NCBI GenBank assembly: GCA_965285935.1
Contig: OZ260662.1
Location: 63,364,001-63,428,000 of the forward strand
Reading direction: 5' to 3'
Source: Ophelia neglecta
Taxonomy: Eukaryota
Length of the DNA: 64,000 nt
This document shows, in pieces, positions 40,527 to 63,982 of this stretch; position 1 is the first letter of the stretch; the number at the start of each line of letters is the position of its first letter. Made by a program: the position numbers and the translations under genes. The notes under the pieces were generated by a model. The model saw only the letters and a list, made by a program, of their open reading frames with translations, did not search any database and was not told the DNA's origin.

Positions 40527-40814
40527 TTAGGCAGTGCAGGTCGCCTGAAGCAATGTCTCCAGGATGACATCCAGGTCGTTAAAATTGGGTGAGGTAAAGT
40601 AAGATTGGTTGATCACTTGTGGCGAAGAACTGATGTCTTTTAGAGTTTGCTCGTCGATTCGATTAGTGATGCCGACAGCGATAATCTTGATCTTTTCATT
40701 TTTAAGTCGGTTGGCCTCCGGAATGGTGTTACCGGCGTCTATGGTGGGAACGCCGTCAGTAATGACGATAGCCACGTTGGTTGCATCTCCGCGGTCAACT
40801 CTTCCTCCAAACAC
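40527..40814 (-). CDS. multi-VWA terminal exon (C-half of last VWA domain, stop)
   Basis: tttgtag acceptor, phase 0; VFGGRVDRGDATNVAIVITDGVPT...LLQATCTA*. Confidence 0.92.
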   Translation of the reverse strand: MFGGRVDRGDATNVAIVITDGVPTIDAGNTIPEANRLKNEKIKIIAVGITNRIDEQTLKDISSSPQVINQSYFTSPNFNDLDVILETLLQATCTA

Positions 40815-43800: not shown

Positions 43801-46800
43801 GAAATTAATGGGCAGGAAAGTGACATGTTAATTTGGTAAATGTGTCAAACAAAGGACATTTTGGGCGCCTAGTGCTTATTTAATTATTCATGAAATTTGT
43901 TGTGGCTGGTTTTCAACTCGGTTCGCAATATTTCACCACTTCTTCTGTCATAAAAAGTTACTTTCATATCTTTATAATGTGTTACGTATGTCCTAACACT
44001 ACACGTGTCAGCCGATTACGATTTCGGTCCCGATTCAGCCAGACTGAAAGTCCCTTCTAGTAAAGCTACGTTCAAGGTATACTTACGCGTAACTGAGGTA
44101 GTGGTAGTTGAAGTTGTACTGCTTGTCGAAGTGGCTAGGTTGAATAGTTTGGTTGAATTCACAATTTACTAACAACTATATTTTTTTAAACAAATTCAGC
44201 AAAATATTATATTTTTATAGCGACAATACATGATATACAGATTTGGTAATGCTGATGTCTAACTTAGCTTAAATCTGATGGATTAATCATCAGCCGAAAG
44301 CCCTCCATACTCAGGAATTAAACTCAATGTGCATATAGTTTTTGGAACTATTTGCTACTCTTTCATATTGATGATTTCTTCACAGGGCCAGTCAAACGTA
44401 ATGGACAGGAATGTGACATTTTAATTATCTTAATGTGTCAAACTGGGGACTATCTGGGTACCTAGTGCTAACTTTAAATGTTCATGAGATTCGTTGTGGC
44501 TTCAGTTTCCCAAACTCGATTCACAATAATTCATCGCGATACCTGTACACAACTTAACAGCCTTTTTACAAACCACCAAGGGTTGAGGGTTGATGGGTTC
44601 CCTACCTGATATCAACATAGATTTCATATATGAACATGTTGCCTGACTATAGCCATTGAATGTACCTGAATTTTACAAACCTTAACAATAAACCGTGCAC
44701 CTTAACTATTTTGGCTGCTTTTTTCAATACAGGAAACTAACCGAAATATAAATGCGGAGATCCATTGGGCGTTATATTACCGTTTAGCGTTCCAGTTTAA
44801 TATTTCACACTATTTATTTTTGCAATTAAAATTTATTTCATCGGCTGCGACAGAAATAATAGTCACCGCTATAGCAGAAAAAGCTTCCCAAGAATGTTTT
44901 ATCATCGCCATTCTTGATGTTTTTGTCTCTCGCTAGTTTGACATACCGGACTGTGTGGACGCCAGTTTGCTACAATAACGCAGACTCATTCAATTTACTA
45001 ACCTTGCGGGGGTGCAACTCCAGGTCCACAAGCACTGCGAATGAGAGTCTCCAGAACATTTTCCAACTCGGTAAAATCAGGTGAAGTGAAGTAATTCTGA
45101 TCCATTCGCTGTGGGGCTGAAGATATGTCTCGCAGCACATCCTCTCGAATAGCCTATTTGAAATTAAAAGCAATAGACCTCCAACACGCATAAGGCTGGA
45201 AATAGGTACTTGTATATACGGACGTCGCGAGGAGAAATAGGAAATTCTAACGCACGTCTACTCAAATATTATGCTATGCTGTTGGTATTTCTAACATGAC
45301 AACACATAATAGTATATTATACATTCCCTTTTAAACTTAATGTTTATCATTTTGATTATCAATTTTGTTTAAACGTTATCACAGAAAACGCCAGATTTAT
45401 AGATATGCCTGTGGACAAGGGGTTCGGTTACCCAGACTGTTTGCTGACCAGGACTTACCTGTGTGATGCCAACTGCAAACAATTGGATGCCGGCGGCCTT
45501 AGCAAGGTTGGCTTCGGGGATTGTGTTTTCGGCACGAATGGTGGGTATGCCATCGGTGATTATTATGCCTACATTTTGAGCGTCAACTCGGTCACTGATG
45601 GTAGCAAAGAACTGCGTTCTCATCATACTTATAGCTGCTTGGGTATTTGTATTGCCTCCAGGGTATCTGTTCTCTAAATCACGGATTTCTCTCAGCAGTG
45701 CGTCTTTGTCAGATATTCTGAAAACGATAATGAATCATGGTCTTAGCAACATCAAAGCAAGTTCTTATGAAAAAAAGTCCGTGGTGCGGCCTTTTGTCAC
45801 AAAGGAATTCTAATTCGACAAAAGTGGACTAAGAAAAGCTTACTGGCCAAGAGGAATTAGCCGCACCGCTTCATTCCCGAAGTAAAGCAAACCAATTTGG
45901 TTAAAATTTCGCCCAATGGTGAACTCCTGGACAATACGCTGTACAAAATCAACCACTAATATCCAATTGTTGCATATATTTCGGACCGAGTCAAATGTAG
46001 GGTCGTTGTCACAGATGCTGCCTGATCCATCTACCGCAAAGACGACGTCCAGCTTGGCTTCAGAGCATGTGGGTGGTCCTGGAGTTGGGCCACATGTGGA
46101 AGCCACCAGTGTTTCTAAAACTTGGTCTAACTCTCCAAAACTAGGCGAGGTGAAGTAGTTCTGTCCCTTTATCTGGGGCGAAGAGGACATATCTCTCAGA
46201 ATATTTTCGTCAATGAATGCGGTGATCCCGACTGGGAAGATGGCGATACCTTGTCTCTTGGCGCTGTTGGCCTCCGGTATAGTGTTTCCCGGCCTTATTG
46301 TAGGAACGCCGTCGGTGAGGATTATGGCCACATCAGGAATTTCAGCTCTGTCTCCGGCTATATTAAATATCTGGGATCTTAATACAGATAAAGCTGCTGG
46401 AGTGTTAGTATTTCCCCCTGGGTAGCGATTGACCAGGTTGTTAACCGCCTCTATCAGTTCATCCTTTTCAGAATACCTTTAATGTAAAATGATAGAAAAC
46501 TAATGATGATTCTCGGTTTATAATAATAGTAAAATATAACGAACTTAACAATAATCATGATGCAATTGGGGATACAAGTCAATCATACATGAAATGTTCA
46601 TGTTATAAATATTTTTACATATTGGTGACCATTAACTGCGGGAGGGAGTGCAAAACCTCGTGCAAGTCACCTTGTCAGACTCACAGTATACGATTCTACG
46701 AGAACCCATTTTCAGTATGAATTATTGTTCTGTTTTTGAAAATTACAGCAAAAGAGAACACCGTCGTTCCACTCAATTTCCAAAAGCAGCCTGCTGACCC

Positions 46801-49800
46801 ACCAATTTGTATTTTTCACACATAATCCAGAAACCGCGAATAATATGAATGCACAGGAAAAGATGTTAAATCCTAACCAGAAATGCACCAAACACGTCCA
46901 ACACCTATATAAATTCAACACACGCCACCTTAACCCTGGTCTTCCCGAGGAATCATTTCATATTCATTATGAAGTTCCCCTTTCTTTAGTCATTTTCTCT
47001 TTAGACCTGCATCACATTATAATTATTGCGGTACTTATAGTCTTTTCCTTTTCGCTAAGCCTTCAGCTTTATGTTGAATGATATATGAGATTTGACAGAA
47101 TGTAGTCCATGGCCATTACCCTTGAATGTTACTACAATTTCGTGACCCCTGTCTGACAATGTTGAATTTCCCCCCCTGGCAAGAAATTCCGCCTCCTTTC
47201 TTCCCGATATATTTACTTGTTATCATATATATGCAACCCCTACTTTAATTAAGATCTTCCAACAAAATCATATGAGCAAACCAAACTAATTTTGTAGCTG
47301 TTATGCACAGTATGGAGAAATCGTAATAAGGTTTTCATTTCGCTCTTACCTGTCAAGGGTCCACTCGATTGTCACTTGGTCAGCAAATATCAAGAGTCCC
47401 ACCCTTACCCCAGTATTTCGATCGATGGGGAATGCATTTACTACCTGACCAACAAAACTGATCATTGTTCTCCAGTTATTACAAATATTATTTCTGAATG
47501 AAGGGTCATTGTCACAGATACTGCCAGATCCGTCTACAGCAAACACAATGTCCAGGAGACTTGACACACAAGTTGGGGGTGGGGTCGGTCTTGGTGTTGG
47601 CCGTGGTGTCACGCAGGCTTGACCTATCAAGGCATTTAATACGTCATCCAGTTCATTGAATTCAGGTGATGTGAAATAGTTTCTGTCTTTCTGCTGAGGA
47701 GAAGATGACATCTCCCGCAAAATATTTTCATCAATAAATCTTGTAATTCCCACTGCAAAGATGGTAATACCTCTAGCCTTGGCGTCATTGGCTTGAGGTA
47801 TTGTATTTCCGGCATTTATTGTGGGCACGCCATCTGTGATAACTATGGCTATATTCAGAGCATCTGATCTGTCTCCACTTGTACTGAATATATCTGTTCG
47901 TAAAACGCTGAGCGCAGCCGGTGTGTTGGTGTTACCTCCAGGATATTGGTTATCCAAATCACGAACTGCGTTTAGCAAATCTCTTTTATCCAGATATCTA
48001 AAAATAAAATTTGTCAAGTCAAAAGAAAATCTAACGTTGGTTCATTTCTGAAGCCGGAGTTCTCCCATATTTAATTATCTTCTGAGGGATAAACACAAGG
48101 CAGGTCTCGTAAATGAATCTTTATAACACTGTTTTCTCCGAAGCGATGTCGCTTGGCATAGACATTAGCCAATGTGTCTACCTCCAATGATTGTAACTAA
48201 TGATTTTAATTGAGGTAGTACTCACTTAAAACCGGCTTTTGAAGATTATTAAAAAGTGATGAATAATGGTTTAACTTGAGATAGTATTTACTTAAAACCA
48301 GTGTTTGAAGAGACAAACAGTGCCCTTACTTTGAATATTGAGTTACTCTTAATAATGTGTCCCATAACTGTATCTTAGCACTAGATTTTCAGCACTGATG
48401 CAGAGGTTTTTGACATTTACATACAGGGAGCAATGCATTATTAGTTGAATCAAAGCCAGCGATTATACCCAATTAATCTGGAAATATTTAGGATTAGCGG
48501 CACCGGTTAAGGTTAGAGGAAGGCTATGTCTGCTATTATTGTATTTAATTATTTGAAACTAGTATTTTAAGAAAAAGGTAATGTGCATACATTTTCAAAA
48601 TATGCCACAACTTACTCTTACAAAACAAAATATTTCTCTTTAATTACTTATCAAGATCATAATTGTTTTTATGACGGTTAACCGTTGAAAACGTGTATCT
48701 CTTAAAAGGAACGCATACGAACCTGTCAAGAGTCCACTTGACCACAGCATTATCGGCAAACAGCAGCAGTCCGACCTGGGAAGCATCTCGTCCAATGCCG
48801 AGGAATTCCACCACATCCGATACAAAACTCACAATCAAATTCCAGTTGTCGCATCTATTATTCCTGAATGTAGGGTCATTGTCACATATGCTACCTGACC
48901 CATCTACTGCAAACACAATATCAAGTTTTGCGTTTGCACAAGTTGGCGGTGGTGTCACACAGGCTTGAACTATCAAGGCATTTAATACGTCATCCAGTTC
49001 ATTGAATTCAGGTGATGTGAAATAATTCCTGTCTTTCTGCTGAGGAGAAGACGACATCTCTCGCAGTATATTTTCATCAATAAATCTGGTTATTCCCACA
49101 GCAAAGATGGTAATACCCCTATTCTTGGCGTCATTAGCTTGTGGGATTGTATTTCCAGCATTTATTGTGGGCACGCCATCAGTGATAACTATGGCTATAT
49201 TCAGAGCATCTGATCTGTCTCCACTAGTACTGAATATATCTGTTTGTAAAACGCTGAGCGCAGCCGGTGTGTTGGTGTTACCTCCAGGATATTGGTTATC
49301 CAGATCCCGAACTGCGTTAAGCAAATCTCCTTTATCCAGATATCTAAAATTAAAATTTGTCAAATCAAAATTAAATCTTATATGGGTTCATTTCTGAAGC
49401 CGGAGCTCTCCCATATTTAATTAACTTCTGAGGGATAAACACAAGGCAGGTCTCGTTAATGACTCTTTATAATACTGTTTTCTCCGCAGCGACGTCGCTT
49501 GTTATAGCCATTAGCCAATGTGTCTACCTCCAATGATTGTAAATAAGGATTTAATTGAGGTAGTACTCACCTAAAACCGGCGTTTGAAGATTGTTGAAAA
49601 GTAACGAATAATGGTTTTACTTGAGGTAGTATTTACTTAAAACCAGCGTTTGAAGAGACAAACAGTGCCCTAACTTTGGATATTTAGTTCCTCTTAATAA
49701 TGAATGTGTCCCATAACTGAATTCTAACACTAGATTTTCAGCACTGATGCAGAGGCTTTTGACATTTACATACAGGGAGCAAGGCATTATTAGTTGAATC

Positions 49801-52800
49801 AAAGCCGGCGATTATACACAAATAATCTGGACAAATTTAGGATTAGCAGCACTGGTTAAGGTTCGAGGAAGGCTATGTCTGCTATTATTGTATTTAATTA
49901 TTTGAAACTAGTATCTTAAGAAAAAGGTAATGTGCATACATTTTCAAAACATGCCACAATTTACTCTTACAAAACAATTTATTTCTCTTTAATTACTTAT
50001 TATCAAGATCTTAATTGTTTTTATGACGGTTTACCGTTGAAAACGTGTATCTCTTAAAAAGAACGCATACGAACCTGTCAAGAGTCCACTTGACCACAGC
50101 ATTATCGGCAAACAGCAGCAGTCCGACCTGGGAAGCATCTCGTCCAATGCCGAGGAATTCCACCACATCCGATACAAAACTCACAATTAAATTCCAGTTG
50201 TTGCATATATTATTCCTGAATGTAGGGTCATTGTCACATATGCTACCTGACCCATCTACTGCAAACACAATATCAAGTTTTGCGTTTGCACAAGTCGGGG
50301 GTGGGGTCGGTCTTGGTGTTGGAGATGGTGTCACACAGGCTTGAACTATCAAGGCATTTAATACGTCATCCAGTTCATTGAATTCAGGTGATGTAAAATA
50401 GTTCCTGTCTTTCTGCTGAGGAGAAGACGACATCTCTCGCAAAATATTTTCATCGATAAATCTGGTGATTCCCACAGCAAAAATGGTAATACCTCTAGCC
50501 TTGGCGTCATTAGCTTGTGGGATTGTATTTCCAGCATTTATTGTGGGCACGCCATCTGTGATAACTATGGCTATATTCAGAGCATCTGATCTGTCTCCAC
50601 TTGTACTGAATATATCGGTTTGTAAAACGCTGAGCGCAGCCGGTGTGTTGGTGTTACCTCCAGGATATTGGTTATCCAGATCCCGAACTGCGTTTAGCAA
50701 ATCTCTTTTATCCAGGTATCTACAAAAATAATCAAATCCATATTAAATCTTATTGAAGGGCATTCTTGATGCCGCGGCTCCCCCATATATGATTAATTCT
50801 GGTGGAGAAACGGAACACAGTACTCACGACTGTCTCTGAACAACACTTTGTTCTGTAGCGTCGTGTCTTGTACTCTGGTAAGAGGGAATTAAGTCTACCG
50901 TCAATTACTGATGGTAATCCTTTTTAATTGAGGTGATAGTCAAATGACCGGCTTTATATAGAGTCAAACAGTGTCGTATGCTTTGAGTACAAAGTTCCTT
51001 TTACACATGTTCCTCACAAATGTAGTTCAAGAAAGGATTTCCTTCGCTGATGCAGAGATATTTATTTTAAGTTCAGTGACAAAGCTTTATATGTAGAACC
51101 AAAGCCAGCAATTATACATATCGTTTTTGGTCAATTTCAAGAATAATGTGACTGCTTTACAGTTATGGAAGGTCATACCTACTATTTATTTAAGTAATGC
51201 TTTAGGACAAGTTTAAAATACAGAAAATGTTTATAAAGGTGGCCAAGTAAGACACGTTTTAGGCCAGAAAAAAAGAATATGTATTTCCCCACCAATAAGT
51301 TGTCAAAATTTCAATGTTTTTTCATGACAGTTTGATCGTTGATCGTGTGTATCTTTTGAAATGAATGTATACGAACCTATCCAGAGTCCACTTGACTACA
51401 GCATTATCGGCAAACAGCAGCAGTCCGACCTGGGAAGCATCTCGTCCAATGCCGAGGAATTCCACCACATCCGATACAAAACTCACAATCAAATTCCAAT
51501 TGTTGCATATATTATTCCTGAATGTAGGATCATTATCACAAATGCTTCCTGACCCATCTACAGCAAATACAACATCAAGTTTTGCGTTTGCACATGTTTG
51601 CGGTGGTGTCGGTCTTGGTGTTGGAGATGGTGTCACACAGGCTTGAACTATCAAGGCATTTAATACGTCATCCAGTTCATTGAATTCAGGTGATGTAAAA
51701 TAGTTCCTGTCTTTCTGCTGAGGAGAAGACGACATCTCCCTGAGAATGTTTTCATCAATAAACCGGGTGATTCCCACGGCAAATATGGTAATACCTCTAG
51801 CCTTGGCGTCATTAGCTTGTGGAATTGTATTTCCAGCATTTATTGTGGGCACGCCATCTGTGATAACTATAGCTATATTCAGAGCATCTGATCTGTCTCC
51901 ACTTGTACTGAATATATCTGTTTGTAAAACGCTGAGCGCAGCCGGTGTGTTGGTGTTACCTCCAGGATATTGGTTATCCAGATCCCGAACTGCGTTAAGC
52001 AAATCTCCTTTATCCAGATATCTAAAATTAAAATTTGTCAAATCAAAATTAAATCTTATATGGGTTCATTTCTGAAGCCGGAGTTCTCCCACATTTAATT
52101 AACTTCTGAGGGATAAACACAAGGCAGGTCTCGTTAATGACTCTTCATAACATTGTTTTCTCCGCAGCGACGTCGCTTGTTATAGCCATTGGCCAATGTG
52201 TCTACCACCAATGATTGTAAACAAGGATTTTAATTGAGGTAGTACTCACCTAAAACCGGCGTTTGAAGATTGTTGAAAATAATGAATAATGGTTTTACTT
52301 GAGCTAGTATTTACTAAAAACCAGCGTTTGAATAGACAAACAGTGCCCTAACTTTGGATATTTAGTTACTCTTAATAATGTGTCCCATAATTGTATTCTA
52401 ACACTAGATTTTCATCACTGATGCAGAGGTTTTTGACATTTACATACAGGGAGCAAGGCATTATTAGTTGAATCAAAGCCAGCGATTATACACAAATATT
52501 CTGGACATATTTAGGATAAGCGGCACTGGTTAAGGGTCAAGGAAGGCTATGTCTGCTAGTATTGTATTTAATTATTTAAAACTAGTATTTTAAGAAAAAG
52601 GTAATGTGCATACATTTTCAAAATATGCCACAACTTACTCTTACAAAACAAAATGTTTTCTCCTAACTTATTTATCAAGATCATAATTGTTTTTATGACG
52701 GTTAACCGTTGAAAAAGTATATCTCTTTAAAGGAACGCATACGAACCTGTCAAGAGTCCACTTGACCACAGCATTATCGGCAAACAGCAGCAGCCCGACT

Positions 52801-55800
52801 TGGGAAGCATCTCGTCCAATGCCGAGGAATTCCACCACATCCGATACAAAACTCACAATCAAATTCCAATTGTTGCATATATTATTCCTGAATGTAGGGT
52901 CATTGTCACATATGCTACCTGACCCATCTACTGCAAACACAATATCAAGTTTTGCGTTTGCACAAGTTGGGGGTGGTGTCGGTCTTGGTGTTGGAGATGG
53001 TGTCACACAGGCTTGAACTATCAAGGCATTTAATACGTCATCCAGTTCATTGAATTCAGGTGATGTGAAATAGTTCCTGTCTTTCTGCTGAGGAGAAGAC
53101 GACATCTCCCGCAAAATATTTTCATCAATAAACCTGGTGATTCCCACAGCAAAAATGGTAATACCTCGTGCCTTGGCGTCATTAGCTTGTGGGATTGTAT
53201 TTCCAGGATTTATTGTGGGCACGCCATCTGTGATAACTATGGCTATATTCAGAGCATCTGATCTGTCTCCACTAGTACTGAATATATCTGTTTGTAAAAC
53301 GCTGAGCGCAGCCGGTGTGTTGGTGTTACCTCCAGGATATTGGTTATCCAGATCCCGAACTGCGTTAAGCAAATCTCCTTTATCCAGATATCTAAAATTA
53401 AAATTTGTCAAATCAAAATTAAATCTTATATGGGTTCATTTCTGAAGCCGGAGCTCTGCCACATTTAATTAACTTCTGAGGGATAAACACAAGGCAGGTC
53501 TCGTTAATGACTCTTTATAACACTCTTTTCTCCGAAGCGACGTCGCTTGTTATAGCCATTAGCCAATGTGTCTACCTCCAATGATTGTAAATAAGGATTT
53601 AATTGAGGTAGTACTCACCTTAAACCGGCGTATGAAGATTGTTGAAAAGTAATGAATAATGGTTTTACTTGAGCTAGTATTTACTTAAAACCAGCGTTTG
53701 AAGAGGCAAACAGTGCCCTAACTTTGGATATTTAGTTCCTCTTAATAATGAATGTGTCCCATAACTGTATTCTAACACTAGATTATCATCACTGATGCAG
53801 AGGTTTTTGACATTTACATACAGGGAGCAAGGCATTATTAGTTGAATCAAAACCAGCGATTATACACAAATAATCTGGACAGTTTTAGGATAAGCGGCAC
53901 TGGTTAAGGTTCGAGGAAGGCAATGTCTGCTAGTATTGTATTTAATTATTTGAAAATAGTATCTTAAGAAAAAGGTAATGTGCATACATTTTCAAAATAT
54001 GCCACAACTTACTCTTACAAAACAAAATATTTCTCTTTAATTACTTATAAAGATCATAATTGTTTTTATGACGGTTAACCGTTGAAAACGTGTATCTCTT
54101 AAAAGGAACGCATACGAACCTGTCAAGAGTCCACTTGACCACAGCATTATCGGCAAACAGCAGCAGCCCGACCTGGGAAGCATCTCGTCCAATGCCGAGG
54201 AATTCCACCACATCCGATACAAAACTCACAATCAAATTCCAGTTGTTGCATCTATTATTCCTGAATGTAGGATCATTATCACAAATGCTTCCTGACCCAT
54301 CTACAGCAAATACAACATCAAGTTTTGCGTTTGCACAAGTTTGCGGTGGTGTCGGTCTTGGCGTTGGAGATGGTGTCACGCAGGCTTGACCTATCAAGGC
54401 ATTTAATACGTCATCCAGTTCATTGAATTCAGGTGATGTGAAATAGTTTCTGTCTTTCTGCTGAGGAGAAGACGACATCTCCCTGAGAATGTTTTCATCA
54501 ATAAACCTGGTGATTCCCACCGCAAAAATGGTAATACCTCTAGCCTTGGCGTCATTAGCTTGTGGGATTGTATTTCCAGGATTTATTGTGGGCACGCCAT
54601 CTGTGATAACTATGGCTATATTCAGAGCATCTGATCTGTCTCCACTAGTACTGAATATATCTGTTTGTAAAACGCTGAGCGCAGCCGGTGTGTTGGTGTT
54701 ACCTCCAGGATATTGGTTATCCAGATCCCGAACTGCGTTTAGCAAATCTCTTTTATCCAGATATCTACAATAAATGGCTTATCATTAGAAATTTTACCGA
54801 TGACAATTGCTGATATTGCGGGTCTTCCATACAGAATGTACTTCTGGTAGATGACAGCGAGACAGTACACTTGAATTTCTCTAAATAATTCCTTGTTCTG
54901 AAGCGACTTGCCAGTTTCCCAGACAACAGCCAAATAAGATTAACATCAATGACGGATATTACTGCATTCTCATTGATGTAGTAGTCACCAAAGACCGGCA
55001 TTATCAAGAGAAAAACAACATCCTATCTTAAGATAATTATTGAGTTTCTTTCGAATATATGCCAGACAAAAGCATTCTACGATAAGATTATAAGTGGAAT
55101 CGAAGACAGTGATATACATAATATATTTGGACATCTTCAAGAATAGCATGACTGACCTAGACTTATGGAAAAGAATAACTGCTATAAATGTAGGTAATGC
55201 ATAGCAACAAGTATATAAAAAAGTATAATGTTCGGAAATTTTTAAAAATGCCTCATTATTACCCAAACAAATAAATAAATTTATTTTCCCAAAATAAACT
55301 ATCACAATTGTAACTGATTTTCGTGACAGTTTGATTGTTGAAAGGGTATATCTTTTGAAATGAATGTATACGAACCTATCCAGACTCCACTTGACTACAG
55401 CATTATCGGCAAACAACAGCAGCCCGACCTGGGAAGCATCTCGTCCAATGCTGAGGAATTCCACCACATCAGATACAAAACTCACAATCAAATTCCAATT
55501 GTTGCATATATTATTCCTGAATGTAGGGTCATTGTCACATATGCTACCTGACCCATCTACAGCAAATACAACATCAAGTTTTGCGTTTGCACATGTTGGC
55601 GGTGGGGTCGGTCTTGGCGTTGGAGATGGTGTCACGCAGGCTTGACCTATCAAGGCATTTAATACGTCATCCAGTTCATTGAATTCGGGTGATGTGAAAT
55701 AGTTCCTGTCTTTCTGCTGAGGAGAAGAAGACATCTCCCGCAAAATATTTTCATCAATAAACCTGGTGATTCCCACAGCAAAAATGGTAATACCTCGTGC

Positions 55801-58800
55801 CTTGGCGTCATTAGCTTGTGGGATTGTATTTCCAGGATTTATTGTGGGCACGCCATCTGTGATTACTATGGCTATATTCAGAGCATCTGATCTGTCTCCA
55901 CTAGTACTGAATATATCTGTTTGTAAAACGCTGAGCGCAGCCGGTGTGTTGGTGTTACCTCCAGGATATTGGTTATCCAGATCCCGAACTGCGTTTAGCA
56001 AATCTCTTTTATCCAGATATCTACAATAAATGGCTTATCATTACAAAATTTTACCGATGACAATTGCTGATGTCGCGGGTCTTCCATACAGAATGTACTT
56101 CTGGTAGATTACAGCGAGACAGTACACTTGAATTTCTCTAAATAATTCCTTGTTCTGAAGCGACTTGCCAGTTTCCCAGACAACAGCCAAATAAGATTAA
56201 CATCAATGACGGATATTACTGCATTCTCATTGATGTAGTAGTCACCAAAGACCGGCATTATCAAGAGAAAAACAACATCCTATCTTAAGATAATTAATGA
56301 GTTTCTTTCGAATATTTGCCAGACAAATGCATTCTACGATAAGATTTCCCTCACTGATGCAGATGTTTTGTTTTTCAGTTCAGTGAACAAAGCTCTATAA
56401 GTGGAATCCAAGACAGTGATACACATAATATGTTTGGACATCTTCAAGAATAGCGTGACTGACCTAGACTTATTGAAAAGGATATCTGCTATAGAAGTAG
56501 GTAATGCATAGCAACAAGTATATAAAAAAAGTATAATGTTCAGAAATTTGTTAAAAAATGCCTCATTATTACCCAAACAAATAAATAAATTTATTTTCCC
56601 AAAATAAACTATCACAATTGTAATTGATTTCCGTGACAGTTTGATTGTTGAAAGGGTTTATCTTTTGAAATGAATGTATACGAACCTATCCAGACTCCAC
56701 TTGACTACAGCATTATCAGCAAACAGCAGCAGTCCGACCTGGGAAGCATCTCGTCCAATGCCGAGGAATTCCACCACATCAGATACAAAACTCACAATCA
56801 AATTCCAATTGTTGCATTTATTATTCCTGAATGTAGGGTCATTGTCACATATGCTACCTGACCCATCTACAGCAAATACAACATCAAGTTTTGCGTTTGC
56901 ACATGTTGGCGGTGGTGTCACACAGGCTTGAACTATCAAGGCATTTAATACGTCATCCAGTTCATTGAATTCAGGTGATGTGAAATAGTTTCTGTCTTTC
57001 TGCTGAGGAGAAGACGACATCTCTCGCAGAATATTTTCATCAATAAATCTGGTTATTCCCACAGCAAAGATGGTAATACCTCTAGCCTTGGCGTCATTAG
57101 CTTGTGGGATTGTATTTCCAGGATTTATTGTGGGCACGCCATCTGTGATAACTATGGCTATATTCAGAGCATCTGATCTGTCTCCACTAGTACTGAATAT
57201 ATCTGTTTGTAAAACGCTGAGCGCAGCCGGTGTGTTGGTGTTACCTCCAGGATATTGGTTATCCAGATCCCGAACTGCGTTTAGCAAATCTCTTTTATCC
57301 AGATATCTACAAAAAAATGTCAAATCCATATTAAATCTTATTGAGGGGCATTCTTGATGCCGCGGCTCCCCCATATATGATTAATTCTGTTGGATAAATG
57401 TAACACAGTACTCACGACTGAACAACACTTTGTTCTGGAGCGTCGTGTCTTGTACTCTGGTAAGATCCAATTAAGTCTACCGTCAATTACTGATGGTAAT
57501 CCTTTTTAATTGAGGTGATAGTCAAAGGACCGGCTTTATATAGAGTCAAACAGTGTCGTATGCTTTGAGTATAAAGTTCCTTTTATACTTGTTACTCACA
57601 AATGTAGTTCAAGATAGGATTTCCTTCGCTGATGCAGAGATATTTATTTTAAGTTCAGTGACAAAGCGTTATAAGTGGAACCAAAACCAGCAATTATACA
57701 TATCGTTTTTGGTCATTTTCAGGAATAATTTGACTGCTTTACAGTTATGGAAGGTCATACCTAATATTTATTTAAGTAATGCTTTAGGACAATTTTAAAA
57801 TACAGAAAATGTTTATAAAGGTGGCCAAGTAAGACACGTTTTAGGCCAGAAAAAAAGAATATATGTATTTCCCTACCAATAAGTTGTCAAAATTTCAATG
57901 TTTTTTCATGACAGTTTGATCGTTGATAGTGTGTATCTTTTGAAATGAATGTATACGAACCTATCAAGAGTCCACTTGACTACAGCATTATCGGCAAACA
58001 GCAGCAGTCCGACCTGGGAAGCATCTCGTCCAATGCCGAGGAATTCCACCACATCCGATACAAAACTCACAATCAAATTCCAGTTGTTGCATATATTATT
58101 CCTGAATGTAGGATCATTATCACAAATGCTACCTGACCCATCTACAGCAAATACAACATCAAGTTTTGCGTTTGCACATGTTGGCGGTGGGGTCGGTCTT
58201 GGTGTTGGAGATGGTGTCACACAGGTTTGAACTATCAAGGCGTTTAATACGTCATCCAGTTCATTGAATTCAGGTGATGTAAAATAGTTCCTGTCTTTCT
58301 GCTGAGGAGAAGACGACATCTCCCGCAAAATATTTTCATCAATAAACCTGGTGATTCCCACGGCAAATATGGTAATACCTCGTGCCTTGGCGTCATTGGC
58401 TTGCGGGATTGTATTTCCAGCATTTATTGTGGGCACGCCATCTGTGATAACTATCGCTATATTCAGAGCATCTGATCTGTCTCCACTAGTACTGAATATA
58501 TCTGTTTGTAAAACGCTGAGCGCAGCCGGTGTGTTGGTGTTACCTCCAGGATATTGGTTATCCAGATCACGAACTGCGTTTAGCAAATCACTTTTATCCA
58601 GATATCTGCAATTAAATTATAAAGTAAATATTAAATCTTGTCGAGGAGGATTCAAGAAGCCGCGGCCTCTTATTGTCTGTTTCTGGAGTATGCCCGCAAG
58701 ACAGCTCTGTTAAATTTCTCTTAATTGTTTTTCTTTTACCGATTTGGTTGCTTTTTCATGGACAATAGTCAATTACGTTACGCAAAATGATTAATTTTTT

Positions 58801-61800
58801 ATTTTTAATTCAGGTAGCAGCCATTGAAAAATGGCATTATAAAGAAGGCAATAGTGCCCCAAGCTTTGGCTATTTAATTTTATTGGACATGTACCCCAGA
58901 AATGCATATAGACATAATTTTCATCTCTGACGCTGAGGTCTTGATATTTCTGTTCCGTGGATTAAGCCTGATTTGTGGAATCAAAGTCAGCGATTGTTCC
59001 TAACAATTTTGGGCATTTGCAGAAAAAGATTGACTGATAGAGAGTTAAGGAAGGACATGTATGCTAAAAACTGTAATAAAACATTTGCAACACGTTTGTT
59101 TACAAAATAACGAAAAATCGCCCAAAAATGCCACATTTATAACCGGAAAAATAAAAACAGTCACCATCAATAAGCTATCAAGTTACCAAACGTTTAATGA
59201 CGGTTTGATCGTTTAATGTGTGCATCATTGGAATGTTATGTCCATACGAACCTATCTAGAGTCCACTTGACTACAGCATTATCGGCAAACAGCAGCAGCC
59301 CGACTTGGGAAGCATCTCGTCCAATGCCGAGGAATTCCACCACATCCGATACAAAACTCACAATCAAATTCCAGTTGTTGCATATATTATTCCTGAATGT
59401 AGGGTCATTGTCACATATGCTACCTGACCCATCTACTGCAAACACAATATCAAGTTTTGCGTTTGCGCAAGTCTGGGGCGGTGTCGGTCTTGGTGTTGGA
59501 GATGGTGTCACACAGGCTTGACCTATCAAGGCACTTAATACGTCATCCAGCTCATTGAATGCTGGTGACGTGAAATAGTTTCTGTCTTTCTGCTGAGGAG
59601 AGGATGACATCTCTCGCAGAATATTTTCATCAATAAATCTTGTAATTCCCACAGCAAATATGGTTATACCTCTAGCCTTGGCGTCATTGGCTTGCGGGAT
59701 TGTATTTCCAGCATTTATTGTGGGCACGCCATCTGTGATTACTATGGCTATATTCAGAGCATCTGATCTGTCTCCACTAGTACTGAATATATCTGTTTGT
59801 AAAACGCTGAGCGCAGCCGGTGTGTTGGTGTTACCTCCAGGATACTGGTTATCTAGATCTCGAACTGCATTAAGCAAATCACTTTTATCCAGATATCTAC
59901 AAAGAAAATGTCGATTCCATATTAAATCTCATTGAGGAGCAGTTTTAATGTCGCGCCTCTCCTGTTTCTGACAAACGTCTAGTGCATTAAGGCAAGACAG
60001 TACTGATAATTTTCTCTTAATAATATTTTATTTTAGAGGGACGTGCCATTTCATGGACAACAGTCAATAACGTTTTCCATCAAGGACTGATGTTATTCAT
60101 GTACTTTTATCTTGAGGCAGTTGTCACTGAAAATAAGGCTTCTGGAGAGATAAACAATACCATACGCTTTAGATATTAAATTCCTCGTAAACATGTGTCG
60201 CACAAATGCATTTTAAGTTTTTGTTCACTGGAGAAGAAGTATTGATTATCATTTCAGTGTACAAAGCATTTTAAGCGGAATCAAAGCCAGCAATTTTAGC
60301 TGAAAGTGTGATCATTTTCAAGAGCAGCGTGACTGGTTCAGCAGGAAGGGCATATCCGTTATCTTTAAGGTATACATTGCAACAAGATAATAAAATTTAA
60401 GAAAAGAATGAAAGTTTTAATAAAGTTGTCCATTGATGACCAAAATAGCAGTGTTCCCCAATGGTAAGTTATCAAGGACGTACAGTCATTTAAATGACGG
60501 CTTTACTGTTAAAAGTGCGTATCGTTTGGTTGGAATGTATACGAACCTATCAAGAGTCCACTTGACTACAGCGTTATCAGCAAACAGTAGCAGTCCGACC
60601 TGGGAAGCATCTCGTCCAATGCCGAGGAATTCTACCACATCCGATACAAAACTCACAATCAAATTCCAATTGTTGCATATATTATTTCTGAATGTAGGGT
60701 CATTGTCACAAATGCTTCCCGACCCATCTACAGCAAACACAATATCAAGTTTTGCGTTTGCACATGTAGGAGGAGGTGTTGGTGATGGGGTAACGCATGC
60801 CTGACTTATCAGGTTATCTAATATACTGTCTAGTTCATTGAATGCTGGGGATGTGAAATAGTTTTTGTTTTTTTCGTGTGGAGACGAGGATATTTCCTTT
60901 AGGATGTCTTCGTCAATGAATCGAGTGATTCCCACAGTGAAGATGTCTATACCTTTTGCTTTTGCTTCATTAGCTTGTGGGATTGTCTTGGAAGTGTCTA
61001 TTGTTGGCACTCCATCTGTTATCACTATAGCTACGTTTCTAGCGGTTGATCTATCGCCACTGGAGCCGAAAATATTCATATGTAAAACATTGAGCGCAGC
61101 CTGTGTATTGGTGTTGCCGCCAGTATATTGATTTTCTAGACCACGAACCGCATTGAGCAAATCACCTTTGTTGGAGTATCTGAAAAGGGGAAAAATGTGA
61201 AAACATTTTAGATATTTGGTAAAAATAGAAAATTCATTTTTATTGATTTATATTCATATGATTGTGGTAGGTTAATGCAGCAATCACATTAATACTTTGG
61301 CCAACACTTTTGTAGCAAATCTAATTTAACACAATTCTTGGGAACAAGATTCTACAAGTATATTCAGTCATGATAACACTACCTCTAGAAATGAGAATTG
61401 TAAATTCATGCTTATGTCTGGAAGAACTAAGAAGGACAAATATCGCGTAGGATTGAGAAAAGATAATATTCAATTAACATGCCTACATAGCATGTTCACT
61501 GCATTGCAGCAGCAAGCCAACTTAAAGTGTTAGTGGTATGGATAGTTTTAAGATAACAAGCAAGAAAAGCATTCTCAGCTTGACATGCATTGCAAAACTA
61601 TCTCAAAAGCATAAAGCAATATTAAACAAATAAGCCAATACAACAGATGCAGAAGTATTGTCCAAATCCTCTAATGTGCGTCTGAAATTGTATGCATTCT
61701 ATTGCCGGGTTGATACTCTGAGGAAGAAACGTGCGGTTTGAATTGGCATTTTAGAGAGACTGGTTTCTAAGTATCGCATATTAAAGTAATGTTATTCGAA

Positions 61801-63982
61801 AACTTTCAGGCAAAACTAGGAAATGTTATGTAGATAAGGTGCACATGTCATGAATTTGATTAACACTAGTAGTGCTCAAGACTGGTGCCTCGGCGGTATA
61901 GTAGCTCTGTAATTACGCAGATTTTAGGCACATGAAACGACACATTAGTTTTGCTTGAACGAAATAACAAACCTATCTAGATTCCATATAACTTCTGCAC
62001 TGTCAGCAAACAGCAGGAGACCAACTCGCGTTGTACTAGGACCAATATTTAAAGCGGTTATAATATCTTGAACAAAAGAAACTATCAAATTCCAATTGTT
62101 ACATCTATTGTTACTAAATGTTGGATCGTTGTCACATATGCTACCAGATGCATCAACAGCGAATACGATATCAAGTTCAGCATCGGCACAAGTTGGCGTT
62201 GGAGTCGGTCTTGGTGTTGGAGATGGTGTTACACAGGCCTGACCAATCAAGGCATTTAATACGTCATCCAGTTCATTGAATTCAGGGGATGTGAAATAGT
62301 TTCTGTCTTTCTCCTGAGGAACAGACGACATCTCCCTGAGAATATTTTCATCAATAAATCTGGTGATTCCCACAGCAAAAATGGTAATACCTCGTGCCTT
62401 GGCGTCATTGGCTTGTGGAATTGTATTTCCAGCATTGATTGTGGGCACACCATCTGTGATTACTATGGCTATATTCAGAGCATCTGATCTGTCTCCAATA
62501 GTACTGAATATATCTGTTTGTAAAACACTGAGTGCGGCCGGTGTGTTGGTGTTGCCTCCTGGATATTGGTTTTCCAGATTCCGAACAGCATTTAACAAAT
62601 CACCTTTGTCGGGATACCTTAAAGTACAGTACAAAAGTTGGGTTATAAATTTTTCAACATCGTGCTTTCATTTTTATCAGATTCTCTTTTGTATTCCAGG
62701 TCAATACCGCGTAAAAGTAAATTAAAATAAAAGTGACCCTATTCACTCTATTCTACTCAAAAGAATCATATTAATTTAAGTTGATGAATTGAGGGAGGTT
62801 GGGATATAGCACTGGATTTGTTGGTAATGCCTGGATGCATTCTTATTTTATGATTACTTCAAACTGTTTACTCAATATTATTGATACGTTTTTTGGAACA
62901 ATTATTTACAATAGTAGACATGGCCAAGGTAGGTGGCCTCTAATCAAGTTTCAGCGGATTCAATGCCTTGGATGGATAGTAATTTTTGGTTGCCCTGCAC
63001 AAGTTGCAATTTCCACCACGAATTACAGTTTAATCGTGATACATATCAATTATAGAAACCGAATTTGGAACTAATATGACACCCTAAGGCGTTTCATTTT
63101 TCTAATAATATTTGATTAACTTTTCTTAAAACTGGTAGAGCGAAAGGATAATTGCCAACCCTTCCATTATCTGTGAGTTATTGCGTCCCTATTAAGAATA
63201 TAGAATACAGGATTGCCTTTTTTTTAAATAAAATATAGTGCATGCTCGATGATGATATTATAATCAGTGATAAAACGAATTCAACGACCTTTTGTTAGGT
63301 AGTATATTTATAAAGTTTATTACATTAGACTTACCGATCAAGAGTCCACTTTATTTCTGCATTATCGGCAAAAAGCAGCAACCCTACAAAGGAAGCATCT
63401 CTACCTATGCCAAGATATTCCACAACATCCGATACAAATTGCACCATCAAATTCCAGTTATTGCACCTGCCGTTTCTAAAAGTAGGGTCATTGTCACATA
63501 TGCTTCCTGATCCATCGACAGCAAATACAAGATCAAGTTTTGCGTTTGCACACGTTGTGGGTGGGGTCGGTTTGGGAGTTGTAGTTGTCGTTGGAATAAC
63601 TGAACATGTTTGTGTTATCAAATTTCCAATTAAGGTATCCAGTTCAGCAAAGGTTGGCGATGTAAAATACGTTAGATCCTTAATCTGTGGTGATGAGGAT
63701 ATATCCCTTAGGGTATTTTCATCAATTAATCTAGTAATGCCAACTACTAATAGTCTTATGTCTTGATTTTTTGCTAGTGTCGCCTCCGGAATGGTATTTG
63801 AAGGATTTACCGTCGGTAAACCGTCTGTTATCACCAGGGCTATATTTTGAGCATCGGATCTGTCACCTACCACTCCGAATAGCTGCGTTCTTAAAACTCT
63901 CAACGCTTCCTGTGTATTTGTGTTTCCTCCTGGGTATTTTAGGGCCGAAATGGCAGTAAATAAAGAAAGCCTGTCGGTGTAG
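40527..63982 (-). CDS. giant multi-VWA-domain protein (collagen VI/matrilin-like VWA repeats, at least 16 domains); 5'-partial
   Basis: Exon chain with consistent phases from 63982 to the TAA at 40527. Every domain has LD(I/V/L)(V/A)F(A/V)(V/I)D(G/A)SGS (MIDAS DxSxS), GGNTNT (MIDAS T), (I/L)TDG (MIDAS D) and flanking cysteines. No collagen Gly-X-Y or transmembrane segment seen in the window. Confidence 0.92.
40955..41060 (-). CDS. multi-VWA exon (YSSKSSLLGAIRPLKNNHPGGNTNTQDGLLKARTQ)
   Basis: ttacag acceptor, gtaaga donor, 106 nt, phase 2/0; PGGNTNT motif. Confidence 0.9.
41270..41498 (-). CDS. multi-VWA exon: N-third of last VWA domain (TCQTAKLDIAFVIDGSGSICDND...)
   Basis: tctttag acceptor, gtatga donor, 229 nt, phase 1/2. 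Confidence 0.9.
41724..41762 (-). CDS. candidate 39-nt micro-exon (QVVSGPPKVLACN)
   Basis: ctttctgctgcaattag acceptor, gtaaaa donor, phase 1/1, open, GC-richer than flanks. Not required for frame. Confidence 0.4.
42896..42943 (-). CDS. Ser/Thr-rich micro-exon 3 (PTSTSSTTSTTTTPVQ)
   Basis: caacttag acceptor, gtacgt donor, 48 nt, phase 1/1. Confidence 0.8.
43492..43539 (-). CDS. Ser/Thr-rich micro-exon 2 (PTSTSSATSTTTTPVQ)
   Basis: caacttag acceptor, gtaagt donor, 48 nt, phase 1/1. Confidence 0.82.
44087..44134 (-). CDS. Ser/Thr-rich micro-exon 1 (ATSTSSTTSTTTTSVT)
   Basis: caacctag acceptor, gtaagt donor, 48 nt, phase 1/1. Confidence 0.82.
45003..45153 (-). CDS. multi-VWA exon (AIREDVLRDISSAPQRMDQNYFTSPDFTELENVLETLIRSACGPGVAPPQ)
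   Basis: caaatag acceptor, gttagt donor, 151 nt, phase 0/1; homologous to the domain C-end of the repeats. Confidence 0.9.
45459..45717 (-). CDS. multi-VWA exon (ISDKDALLREIRDLENRYPGGNTNTQ...FAVGITQ)
   Basis: ttttcag acceptor, gtaagt donor, 259 nt, phase 2/0. Confidence 0.9.
45844..46476 (-). CDS. VWA repeat exon N (divergent)
   Basis: 633 nt, phase 2/2, aag acceptor, gtaagc donor; ORF 45840-46331. Confidence 0.9.
47350..47997 (-). CDS. VWA repeat exon M (5' part consensus, 3' part divergent)
   Basis: 648 nt, phase 2/2, ttttag acceptor, gtaaga donor. Confidence 0.93.
48723..49343 (-). CDS. VWA repeat exon L (short linker)
   Basis: 621 nt, phase 2/2, ttttag acceptor, gttcgt donor. Confidence 0.92.
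50075..50719 (-). CDS. VWA repeat exon K
   Basis: 645 nt, phase 2/2, tttgtag acceptor, gttcgt donor. Confidence 0.92.
51377..52021 (-). CDS. VWA repeat exon J
   Basis: 645 nt, phase 2/2, ttttag acceptor, gttcgt donor. Confidence 0.92.
52747..53391 (-). CDS. VWA repeat exon I
   Basis: 645 nt, phase 2/2, ttttag acceptor, gttcgt donor. Confidence 0.92.
54120..54764 (-). CDS. VWA repeat exon H
   Basis: 645 nt, phase 2/2, attgtag acceptor, gttcgt donor. Confidence 0.92.
55376..56020 (-). CDS. VWA repeat exon G
   Basis: 645 nt, phase 2/2, attgtag acceptor, gttcgt donor. Confidence 0.92.
56686..57306 (-). CDS. VWA repeat exon F (short linker)
   Basis: 621 nt, phase 2/2, tttgtag acceptor, gttcgt donor. 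Confidence 0.92.
57961..58605 (-). CDS. VWA repeat exon E
   Basis: 645 nt, phase 2/2, ttgcag acceptor, gttcgt donor. Confidence 0.92.
59252..59896 (-). CDS. VWA repeat exon D
   Basis: 645 nt, phase 2/2, ctttgtag acceptor, gttcgt donor. Confidence 0.92.
60547..61179 (-). CDS. VWA repeat exon C (5' part divergent, 3' part consensus)
   Basis: 633 nt, phase 2/2, ttttcag acceptor, gttcgt donor. Confidence 0.92.
61973..62617 (-). CDS. VWA repeat exon B (5' part consensus, 3' part divergent)
   Basis: 645 nt, phase 2/2, tttaag acceptor, gtttgt donor. Confidence 0.9.
63335..63982 (-). CDS. VWA repeat exon A (5' part divergent, 3' part near consensus)
   Basis: 648 nt, phase 2/2, atttcag acceptor, gtaagt donor; the upstream exon lies beyond the window. 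Confidence 0.92.

What the first reader, a model, noticed from the sequence alone, without database searches (positions are those of the whole stretch)
47350..63982. Homogenisation follows protein domains, not exons: chimeric exons at the array edges
Seen: exon C is divergent in its 5' part (NQYTGGNTNTQAALNVLHMNIF...) but consensus after the linker; exon B is the mirror image (consensus, then ADAELDIVFAVDASGS...VQDIITALNIGPSTTRV). Exons A and M are similarly split. The switch always falls at or near the Pro/Thr linker, so domain B/C is one divergent domain between consensus-type domains. The ten homologous introns lie exactly inside the ten consensus domains C/D to L/M. The last domain keeps the same internal phase-2 intron plus a phase-1 intron before it. 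Inference: the duplicated unit is a whole domain with its internal intron, joined within coding linker DNA, which differs from classical phase-1 exon shuffling; the B/C domain may be kept distinct by selection.
Basis: partly seen in the sequence, partly recalled or inferred. Interest (0 to 1): 0.7.

Follow-up and report, generated by a model that had tools for sequence, protein, structure and literature searches.

The report
Ghost intron marks domain-array junctions
In an animal gene predicted to encode 21 tandem von Willebrand A adhesion domains, ten near-identical copies switch abruptly to divergent ones at the linker codon where related genes show the splice signals of an intron, so the domains likely began as ordinary intron-bounded modules, likely lost that intron later, and are likely still being mixed by short gene conversions.

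Summary
Exons A, B, C and M switch between core and divergent sequence at codon columns 142, 150, 148 and 150, and ten homologous phase-2 introns lie inside domains C/D to L/M. The interpretation needs revision. First, the sharp switches sit at the linker's 3' end, next to the N-terminal Cys (column 149). That is where paralogs in the same genome have a phase-1 acceptor (39 of 41 domain starts; 26 exactly 2 nt before the Cys), and a relative's ortholog of exon N appears to keep that intron. The unit is therefore likely a classical 1-1 module whose linker intron was lost, not an alternative to one. Second, inside the core, breakpoints scatter through domains with no linker hotspot. The ten introns form five families about 38% apart, while synonymous sites differ by about 18%, so conversion there is exon-limited. 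Third, two switches upstream of the window lie inside domains. Fourth, B/C looks like an older paralog (dN/dS about 0.09), and selection is unproven. This is a new variant of known concerted evolution. There is no RNA evidence.

The parts
63335..63982 (-). Exon A: C-part of divergent domain Z/A, linker, N-part of core-like domain A/B; switch at col 142 (139-149), junction codon near 63555
62618..63334 (-). Phase-2 intron A/B, not homologous to the ten core introns although the domain is core-like (91% aa)
61973..62617 (-). Exon B: core-like tract from about col 31 to col 143-150, then N-part of divergent domain B/C; N-terminal Cys codon at 62190-62188
61180..61972 (-). Phase-2 intron B/C, unique
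60547..61179 (-). Exon C: C-part and linker of divergent B/C, core sequence from col 148 (60767) on
47573..60767 (-). Core block of ten VWA units C/D to L/M (exons D-L: 59896-59252, 58605-57961, 57306-56686, 56020-55376, 54764-54120, 53391-52747, 52021-51377, 50719-50075, 49343-48723); domains 96.4-99.5% aa identical, exons 92.5-97.2% nt
59897..60546 (-). Core intron C/D, family delta (single member)
58606..59251 (-). Core intron D/E, family epsilon (single member)
57307..57960 (-). Core intron E/F, family beta (with J/K, 50720-51376; 4% apart)
54765..56685 (-). Core introns F/G (56021-56685) and G/H (54765-55375), family gamma (3% apart), flanking exon G
47998..54119 (-). Span holding family alpha introns H/I (53392-54119), I/J (52022-52746), K/L (49344-50074), L/M (47998-48722), 4-9% apart, interrupted by beta intron J/K
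47350..47997 (-). Exon M: core C-part and linker up to Cys149 (47570), then N-part of divergent domain M/N
45844..46476 (-). Exon N: fused junction here; the orthologous peptide P0099 (84% identical C-part) runs into intron-like sequence at the codon before the Cys
45003..45717 (-). Exons O (45717-45459) and P (45153-45003): rest of domain 20, extra phase-0 intron, ends in phase 1
42896..44134 (-). Three 48-nt phase 1-1 Thr/Ser-rich mini-exons (44134-44087, 43539-43492, 42943-42896)
40527..41498 (-). Last VWA domain, exons Q, R, S: phase-1 acceptor 5 nt before the Cys, phase-2 and phase-0 introns, stop codon

Best explanation
The exons look chimeric because each one joins the tail of one VWA domain to the head of the next at the codon where related genes show a phase-1 splice site, so the domains likely multiplied as intron-bounded two-exon modules, the linker introns were likely lost afterwards, and short exon-limited gene conversions likely keep mixing the ten core copies. 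Shown: the exon layout, the switch positions, the phase-1 acceptor signals in paralogs, recombination signals inside core domains, and the five intron families. Inferred, step 1: the ancestral module was [phase 1 | x-Cys, N-part | phase-2 intron | C-part, Pro/Thr linker | phase 1], and domain types diverged while the linker introns still bounded exchange. This puts the switch one codon before the Cys and keeps each linker with the upstream domain. Inferred, step 2: linker introns were lost precisely at several junctions, not only once in a founder. Inferred, step 3: unequal crossing-over built the ten-unit block, and ectopic conversion tracts of roughly 30-360 nt homogenise coding sequence across intron families. 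Tracts end anywhere among near-identical copies but stop at strong mismatch, that is at diverged introns and at the old module border. B/C is an older sister paralog that escapes because it is already about 28% divergent. The protein is predicted to be a secreted or surface adhesion or matrix protein, since its closest solved relatives by sequence are collagen VI alpha 3 and mussel PTMP1.
For: Switch columns 148, 150, 150 and 142 with Cys at 149. Paralogs in the same genome: an AG acceptor in phase 1 before the N-terminal Cys in 39 of 41 domain starts, 26 of 41 exactly 2 nt before it, against 5% by chance; their C-exons end after the Pro/Thr linker. Loci of other organisms: a phase-1 YAG within 18 nt in 47 of 48 starts that have an upstream stop, against 18% by chance (one search lists 58 starts). 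Relatives of this gene show both states: 7 peptides are fused across the linker, and 3 (P0099, P0199, P0297) run off after the linker with G-K, S-K or R-K, the translation of N|GT AAG. P0099 is the ortholog of the M/N C-part (84%, UFBoot 100) at a junction that is fused here. Domain-wise ancestry: Mantel r = 0.72-0.82 versus 0.31. Core mosaicism: 457 of 741 site pairs incompatible, minimum 16 recombination intervals, 11 of them wholly inside a domain, clustering test p = 0.0002; within a single C-part p = 0.0006, within the N-part p = 0.015. Introns differ by 0.38 between families and 0.03-0.09 within, while coding pS is 0.18 between and 0.13 within. Four peptides on one contig of another organism are 97.6-98.6% identical to each other but 67-70% to this core.
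Against: The 19 central domains form one clade (UFBoot 94), so a single founder loss followed by growth is the simpler count of events for most junctions. The ancestral intron site is also the structural start of the domain, so selection against hybrid domains predicts a similar place. The retained introns in relatives are read from peptides only; their DNA was not seen, and support for P0199 and P0297 nesting among fused forms is 55-78. Losing 18 of 18 linker introns while keeping 21 of 21 phase-2 introns needs a directed process that is not demonstrated. Upstream switches Z (col 116) and Y (col 200) are not at the site. In the core, domain pairing still correlates somewhat better than exon pairing (0.38, p = 0.06 versus 0.14, p = 0.17). 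No RNA confirms any splice site.
Confidence: 0.55

Rival explanations
1. One reading: one founder junction lost its intron, all later duplications were crossovers in coding DNA, and only those that keep divergent domains whole (in the linker) survived selection.
For: The central domains are one clade. Breakpoints scatter among near-identical core copies, where hybrids cost nothing, but sit at the border between divergent types. Even Z's switch swaps only the last predicted helix (helix 116-128 of the exon K model, mean pLDDT 64.5).
Against: It predicts switches anywhere in the 19-codon linker and on either side, yet C and M fall within 2 codons of the Cys and the linker stays with the upstream domain in B, C, M and largely in A. 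A uniform break hits cols 148-150 with probability 0.014 and the linker with 0.088. P0099 indicates a later, separate loss at junction N. Y's switch makes a hybrid domain.
Confidence: 0.3
2. The C-rich Pro/Thr linker is a mechanistic hotspot or barrier (slippage, indels that end heteroduplex), and no history or selection is needed.
For: Linkers vary in length (A, C, F, L, N, Z). Several of the longest identical tracts between core exons end at cols 144-147 or start at col 156. Site pairs across the linker at 90-180 nt are incompatible in 33 of 34 cases versus 64 of 98 within a domain.
Against: The distance-matched excess across the linker (0.10) is not beyond uniform conversion in simulations (P = 0.27-0.45 for four tract lengths), and a window at col 71 scores higher. 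B and M have core-length linkers with no indel, yet they switch after the linker.
Confidence: 0.1
3. RNA-mediated duplication: a back-spliced or partly spliced transcript of one module (internal intron retained) was reverse transcribed and recombined in, giving intron-less joins exactly at the old splice site.
For: It would explain at once the exact register, the loss of linker introns and the retention of the phase-2 intron (inference).
Against: No direct trace was found. It would have to recur at seven or more junctions between divergent types, and no RNA data could be examined.
Confidence: 0.05

Closest known systems
Abalone VERL repeat array (PMC2704960, passages read)
   Same: Internal repeats homogenised by conversion or unequal crossing-over at about 95% nucleotide identity, while edge repeats evolve independently; species-specific consensus.
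   Different: VWA domains with an intron inside every repeat. The divergent B/C domain sits between core-type domains. No positive selection is shown here.
Argiope MaSp2 silk genes with iterated introns (PMC9779670, passages read)
   Same: Exon-intron units repeated in tandem, more than one intron type within a gene, exon homology kept while introns turn over.
   Different: There, introns are homogenised (mean 97.6%) and delimit the repeat unit. Here, introns fall inside a folded domain, form five interspersed families about 38% apart, and are less homogeneous than the exons.
Class 1-1 module exon shuffling (PMC8001218, passages; sponge aggregation factors PMC5400394, passages: VWA domains on single exons, 154 of 155 introns in phase 1)
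   Same: Paralogs in this genome and loci of other organisms have phase-1 splice signals at VWA borders.
   Different: The 18 central junctions of this gene have no border intron and keep only the internal phase-2 intron.
Domain-repeat expansion survey (PMC1553488, passages read)
   Same: Repeats expand in the middle of arrays, and some families (nebulin, cadherin) have fewer exon junctions in linkers than expected.
   Different: That survey notes the duplication boundary usually cannot be placed. Here it can be placed to within about two codons.
Collagen VI alpha 3 VWA tandem and mussel PTMP1 (PDB 9han, 4cn8)
   Same: Tandem VWA domains with border cysteines (PTMP1) and a DxSxS motif.
   Different: Distant matches only (best stretches 26-44 bits). 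No collagen helix or EGF exon appears in the modelled gene, which has PAN-like exons upstream and Thr-rich spacers.

Membership tests
VWA domain (PF00092) | Pfam match above cut-off | tested here: met
   Exon K 106.1 bits, cut-off 23.8, in two stretches
VWA domain (PF00092) | MIDAS residues DxSxS...T...D (motif definition recalled) | tested here: met
   D[GAS]SGS, NTNT and TDG are present in 21 of 21 modelled domains (alignment)
VWA domain (PF00092) | Metal-dependent ligand binding | not testable with these tools
   Needs a binding assay
Class 1-1 shuffled module (present gene) | Phase-1 introns at both domain borders | tested here: not met
   0 of 18 central junctions carry an intron; phase-1 introns remain only around the Thr-rich spacers near the ends
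Class 1-1 shuffled module (ancestral state) | Phase-1 border intron in paralogs and other organisms | tested here: met
   39 of 41 paralog starts; 47 of 48 starts in other loci; splice signals only, no RNA
Class 1-1 shuffled module (ancestral state) | Border intron retained in an ortholog of this gene | tested here: inconclusive
   3 of 10 related junction peptides run into intron-like sequence; DNA not seen
VERL-type concertedly evolving repeat array | Internal repeats about 95% identical in DNA, edge repeats divergent | tested here: met
   Core exons mean 95.2% (92.5-97.2); edge domains 62-72% aa
VERL-type concertedly evolving repeat array | Repeats more alike within than between species | tested here: met
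   Four peptides of one 54-kb contig are 97.6-98.6% identical to each other and 67-70% to this core
VERL-type concertedly evolving repeat array | Positive selection on the non-homogenised repeats | tested here: inconclusive
   B/C versus core dN 0.186, dS about 2.15 (near saturation); relative-rate chi2 above 3.84 in 2 of 8 tests; no orthologs of B/C in hand
MaSp2-type homogenised iterated introns | Introns homogenised across the gene | tested here: not met
   Five families, 0.33-0.41 apart
Collagen VI / matrilin | Triple helix or EGF repeats with the VWA domains (recalled) | tested here: not met
   None in the 4,553-codon model from domain 1 to the stop; the 5' end of the gene was not fully modelled

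The most novel reading that the evidence does not exclude
Intron loss itself spreads by concerted evolution. An intron-less junction acts as a conversion donor and deletes the linker intron from sister junctions one after another (18 of 18 lost, 21 of 21 internal introns kept), so classical 1-1 modules are rewritten into phase 2-2 exons that straddle two domains, with the lost intron left as a ghost boundary. The Thr codon (ACN) before the Cys in exon N, where the ortholog has an exon-final G, would be the donor's footprint.
Probability: 0.3. Interest if true: 0.7.

Novelty: new variant of a known kind. Interest (0 to 1): 0.45.

Why it matters
Surveys of domain repeats usually cannot tell whether a duplication broke in an intron or in coding DNA. 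Here the boundary is placed to about two codons and coincides with an intron that is no longer there. So the absence of border introns is not evidence against exon shuffling. The gene is also a natural experiment. Ten near-identical copies give the background distribution of exchange points, and the edges show which exchanges persist between divergent domains. Relatives with mixed fused and unfused junctions make the order of duplication and intron loss testable. Ten adjacent domains at 96-99% identity also run against the reported pressure for neighbouring domains to diverge to avoid misfolding (PMC4660218, abstract and passages; PMC6863430, passages).

Tried and rejected
Assembly artefact: contigs of one sample bridge junctions A, B, N and Z with few or no differences, and cover all 30 bins; this may be the same sample, so it is weak independent support, and core copy number could not be checked. 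An apparent joint between the upstream contig and exon N suggested an allelic Z-N conversion, but the contig matches exon Z with 0-1 other letters, so it was rejected. No RNA holder was listed. Introns as dispersed repeats: intron F/G matches only 5 places in the genome, all in this array. Linker hotspot in the core: not significant. B/C as a member of the upstream W-Z type: rejected, it is sister to A/B plus core in the C-part tree (support 80). B/C under positive selection: no sign. The fold prediction of exon K alone was of modest confidence (mean pLDDT 64.5) and was used only to place helices; no fold search was run. The metagenome scan gave only distant VWA loci (at most 52% identity), no ortholog DNA. 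No Atlas result was obtained for the second PAN-like exon, which has no Pfam match and stays unassigned. Earlier scan notes: nothing. Literature searches with no hits: 'von Willebrand factor A' + tandem + concerted evolution + intron; intron loss, concerted evolution, exon fusion, internal repeats at 3 of 4 terms. Searches listed papers on intron loss whose titles and abstract starts did not describe spread along a domain array; they were not read further. The library lacks most subscription papers.

Full report
What is there. The region is part of a minus-strand animal gene (762-Mb genome) that continues beyond the window. Splice signals give one open model of 4,553 codons with 21 VWA domains (PF00092; model), Thr-rich spacer exons near both ends and two PAN-like exons upstream (weak PAN match for one). 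The few named relatives among the best hits are lophotrochozoan proteins and collagen VI-like proteins, so the animal is probably a lophotrochozoan; this is weak. Eighteen central exons (W-Z upstream of the window, A-N inside) are all phase 2-2, and each encodes the C-part of one domain, a Pro/Thr linker and the N-part of the next. No RNA holder was listed, so all splice sites are predictions.

The observation. Against core exons D-L, codon-level changepoints are col 148 for C, 150 for M, 150 for B and 142 for A, with the linker between Cys130 and Cys149. Synonymous sites alone give 148, 154 and 150 for C, M and B; A is not significant that way. B is method-dependent (186 on raw nucleotides; 31 and 143 in a two-break fit). 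The ten introns C/D to L/M are homologous and A/B, B/C, M/N are not. The last domain has the stated introns plus one in phase 0. Short-read contigs bridge junctions A, B, N and Z. C and M are the two ends of one tandem block and so share one register; the window holds two or three independent switches, not four.

Domain-wise ancestry is real at depth. Among divergent representatives, N- and C-part distances agree by domain (r = 0.82, 10 domains; 0.72, 7 central domains) and not by exon (0.31, 9 exons).

It is not the rule inside the core. The introns form five families (alpha H/I, I/J, K/L, L/M; beta E/F, J/K; gamma F/G, G/H; two singletons), 0.38 apart between and 0.03-0.09 within families. 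Coding pS is 0.18 between families (37 pairs) and 0.13 within (8 pairs), although synonymous sites saturate at 0.70-0.83 against other domain types. So coding DNA is more alike than its intron between families and less alike within them. Of 36 informative coding sites, 29 conflict with the intron families: 28 of 30 beyond 30 nt from a splice site and 1 of 6 within; among intron sites 15 of 145 conflict. The exon alignment needs at least 16 recombination intervals, 11 wholly inside a domain, 4 overlapping the linker and 1 starting at its last codon; incompatibility clusters by position (p = 0.0002), also within a single C-part (p = 0.0006) or N-part (p = 0.015). Recurrent mutation may inflate the count. 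A linker hotspot is not supported (P = 0.27-0.45), though a weak domain-wise trend remains (0.38 versus 0.14). Domain A/B is 91% identical to the core but has an unrelated intron, and exon B carries a core-like tract from about col 31. This is what exon-limited conversion predicts.

Upstream test. In the second sub-array, Z switches at col 116 (111-118), at the start of the last predicted helix, and Y at col 200 (197-200); W is broad (98-148). Two of three are inside domains.

The new point: the switch sits on a lost intron. Paralogous VWA arrays in the same genome match exon K as two separate exons. In five such loci, a phase-1 AG acceptor precedes the N-terminal Cys in 39 of 41 domain starts (26 at 2 nt, 12 at 8 nt, 1 at 11 nt); chance for the 2-nt position is 5%. 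Their C-exons end after the linker. Loci of other organisms agree (47 of 48, chance 18%). Two nt before the Cys is col 148. The linker stays with the upstream domain in B, C, M and largely in A, as in the ancestral two-exon module. A uniform break would hit cols 148-150 with probability 0.014. Peptides from relatives' contigs show both states: 7 fused and 3 ending after the linker in G-K, S-K or R-K, the translation of a phase-1 donor. P0099 is the ortholog of the M/N C-part (84%, UFBoot 100) and breaks exactly where exon N continues into Thr-Cys. This is read from protein only. Against late loss, the 19 central domains are one clade (UFBoot 94), which fits a single founder loss for most junctions.

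Mechanism. I put 0.55 on modules duplicating and diverging while bounded by phase-1 introns, later precise loss of those introns at more than one junction, and continuing unequal crossing-over and short conversion that stop at strong mismatch. I put 0.3 on one founder loss plus selection against hybrid domains, 0.1 on a linker hotspot or barrier alone, and 0.05 on RNA-mediated duplication. The first two can both hold in part.

B/C. It is 72% identical to the core, closer than any other non-core type except A/B, and sister to A/B plus core in the C-part tree. Its dN/dS against the core is about 0.09 (dS near saturation), against 0.095 for A/B and 0.06 within the core. Relative-rate tests exceed 3.84 in 2 of 4 comparisons with G/H and 0 of 4 with A/B. 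An older paralog shielded by its divergence is enough; selection is possible but unshown.

Comparison with what is known. Homogenised internal repeats with divergent edges are known from VERL (PMC2704960, passages), iterated intron types from Argiope MaSp2 (PMC9779670, passages), mid-array expansion and linkers poor in exon junctions from PMC1553488 (passages), class 1-1 modules from PMC8001218 and PMC5400394 (passages), and single-exon domain amplification from piccolo b (PMC3484663, abstract and outline). A relative's array has its own consensus, as concerted evolution predicts. Searches for a VWA case and for intron loss with concerted evolution and exon fusion returned nothing; two searches listed nothing evidently matching by title and abstract start. 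The library is incomplete.

Verdict. The feature is real and the processes are of known kinds. The combination of a ghost-intron register, selective loss of border introns and exons that out-homogenise their own introns is a new variant. Interest 0.45.

Noticed in passing
window 32279-34525 (+): Long open frame with seven C2H2 zinc-finger matches; it looks like a MECOM/PRDM16-type transcription factor exon (name recalled).
   Followed up: partly
window 42896-44134 (-): Three tandem 48-nt phase 1-1 Thr/Ser mini-exons with similar flanking intron DNA: a small array duplicated with its introns, in the same gene.
   Followed up: partly
L001:1265-4535 (-), just upstream of the window: A second homogenised sub-array (exons W, X, Y, Z) with short introns of 224-236 nt and switches inside domains.
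   Followed up: yes
window, linkers of exons F (56686-57306) and L (48723-49343): The same 24-nt linker deletion in two exons with different intron families on both sides; their longest identical tract spans cols 110-147 (p = 0.07).
   Followed up: partly
window 47998-60546, core introns: Introns of different families align end to end with only 10-17 gaps over about 640 columns at 31-36% mismatch, and are about as long as the exons. Not explained.
   Followed up: no
window 45844-63982: All central exons are symmetric phase 2-2 at the same domain position, so exon skipping would give in-frame hybrid domains; an exon product equals the circularly permuted central domain of a tandem swap (PMC6863430, passages).
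   Followed up: no
L007-L016 (G000:C2:63,519,001-63,569,000 and 63,596,001-63,646,000): Two paralogous multi-VWA arrays on the opposite strand, 90-220 kb away, with linker introns intact; one has near-identical domain pairs, the other its own tight clade of domains.
   Followed up: partly
L001-L002 (about G000:C2:63,432,800-63,437,500 and 63,441,300-63,444,300): Long minisatellite-like arrays inside the upstream introns of the same gene, seen as repetitive open frames.
   Followed up: no
proteins P0044, P0181, P0182, P0196 (one 54,081-base contig): An independently homogenised array of fused exons in another organism, varying mainly in linker length.
   Followed up: partly
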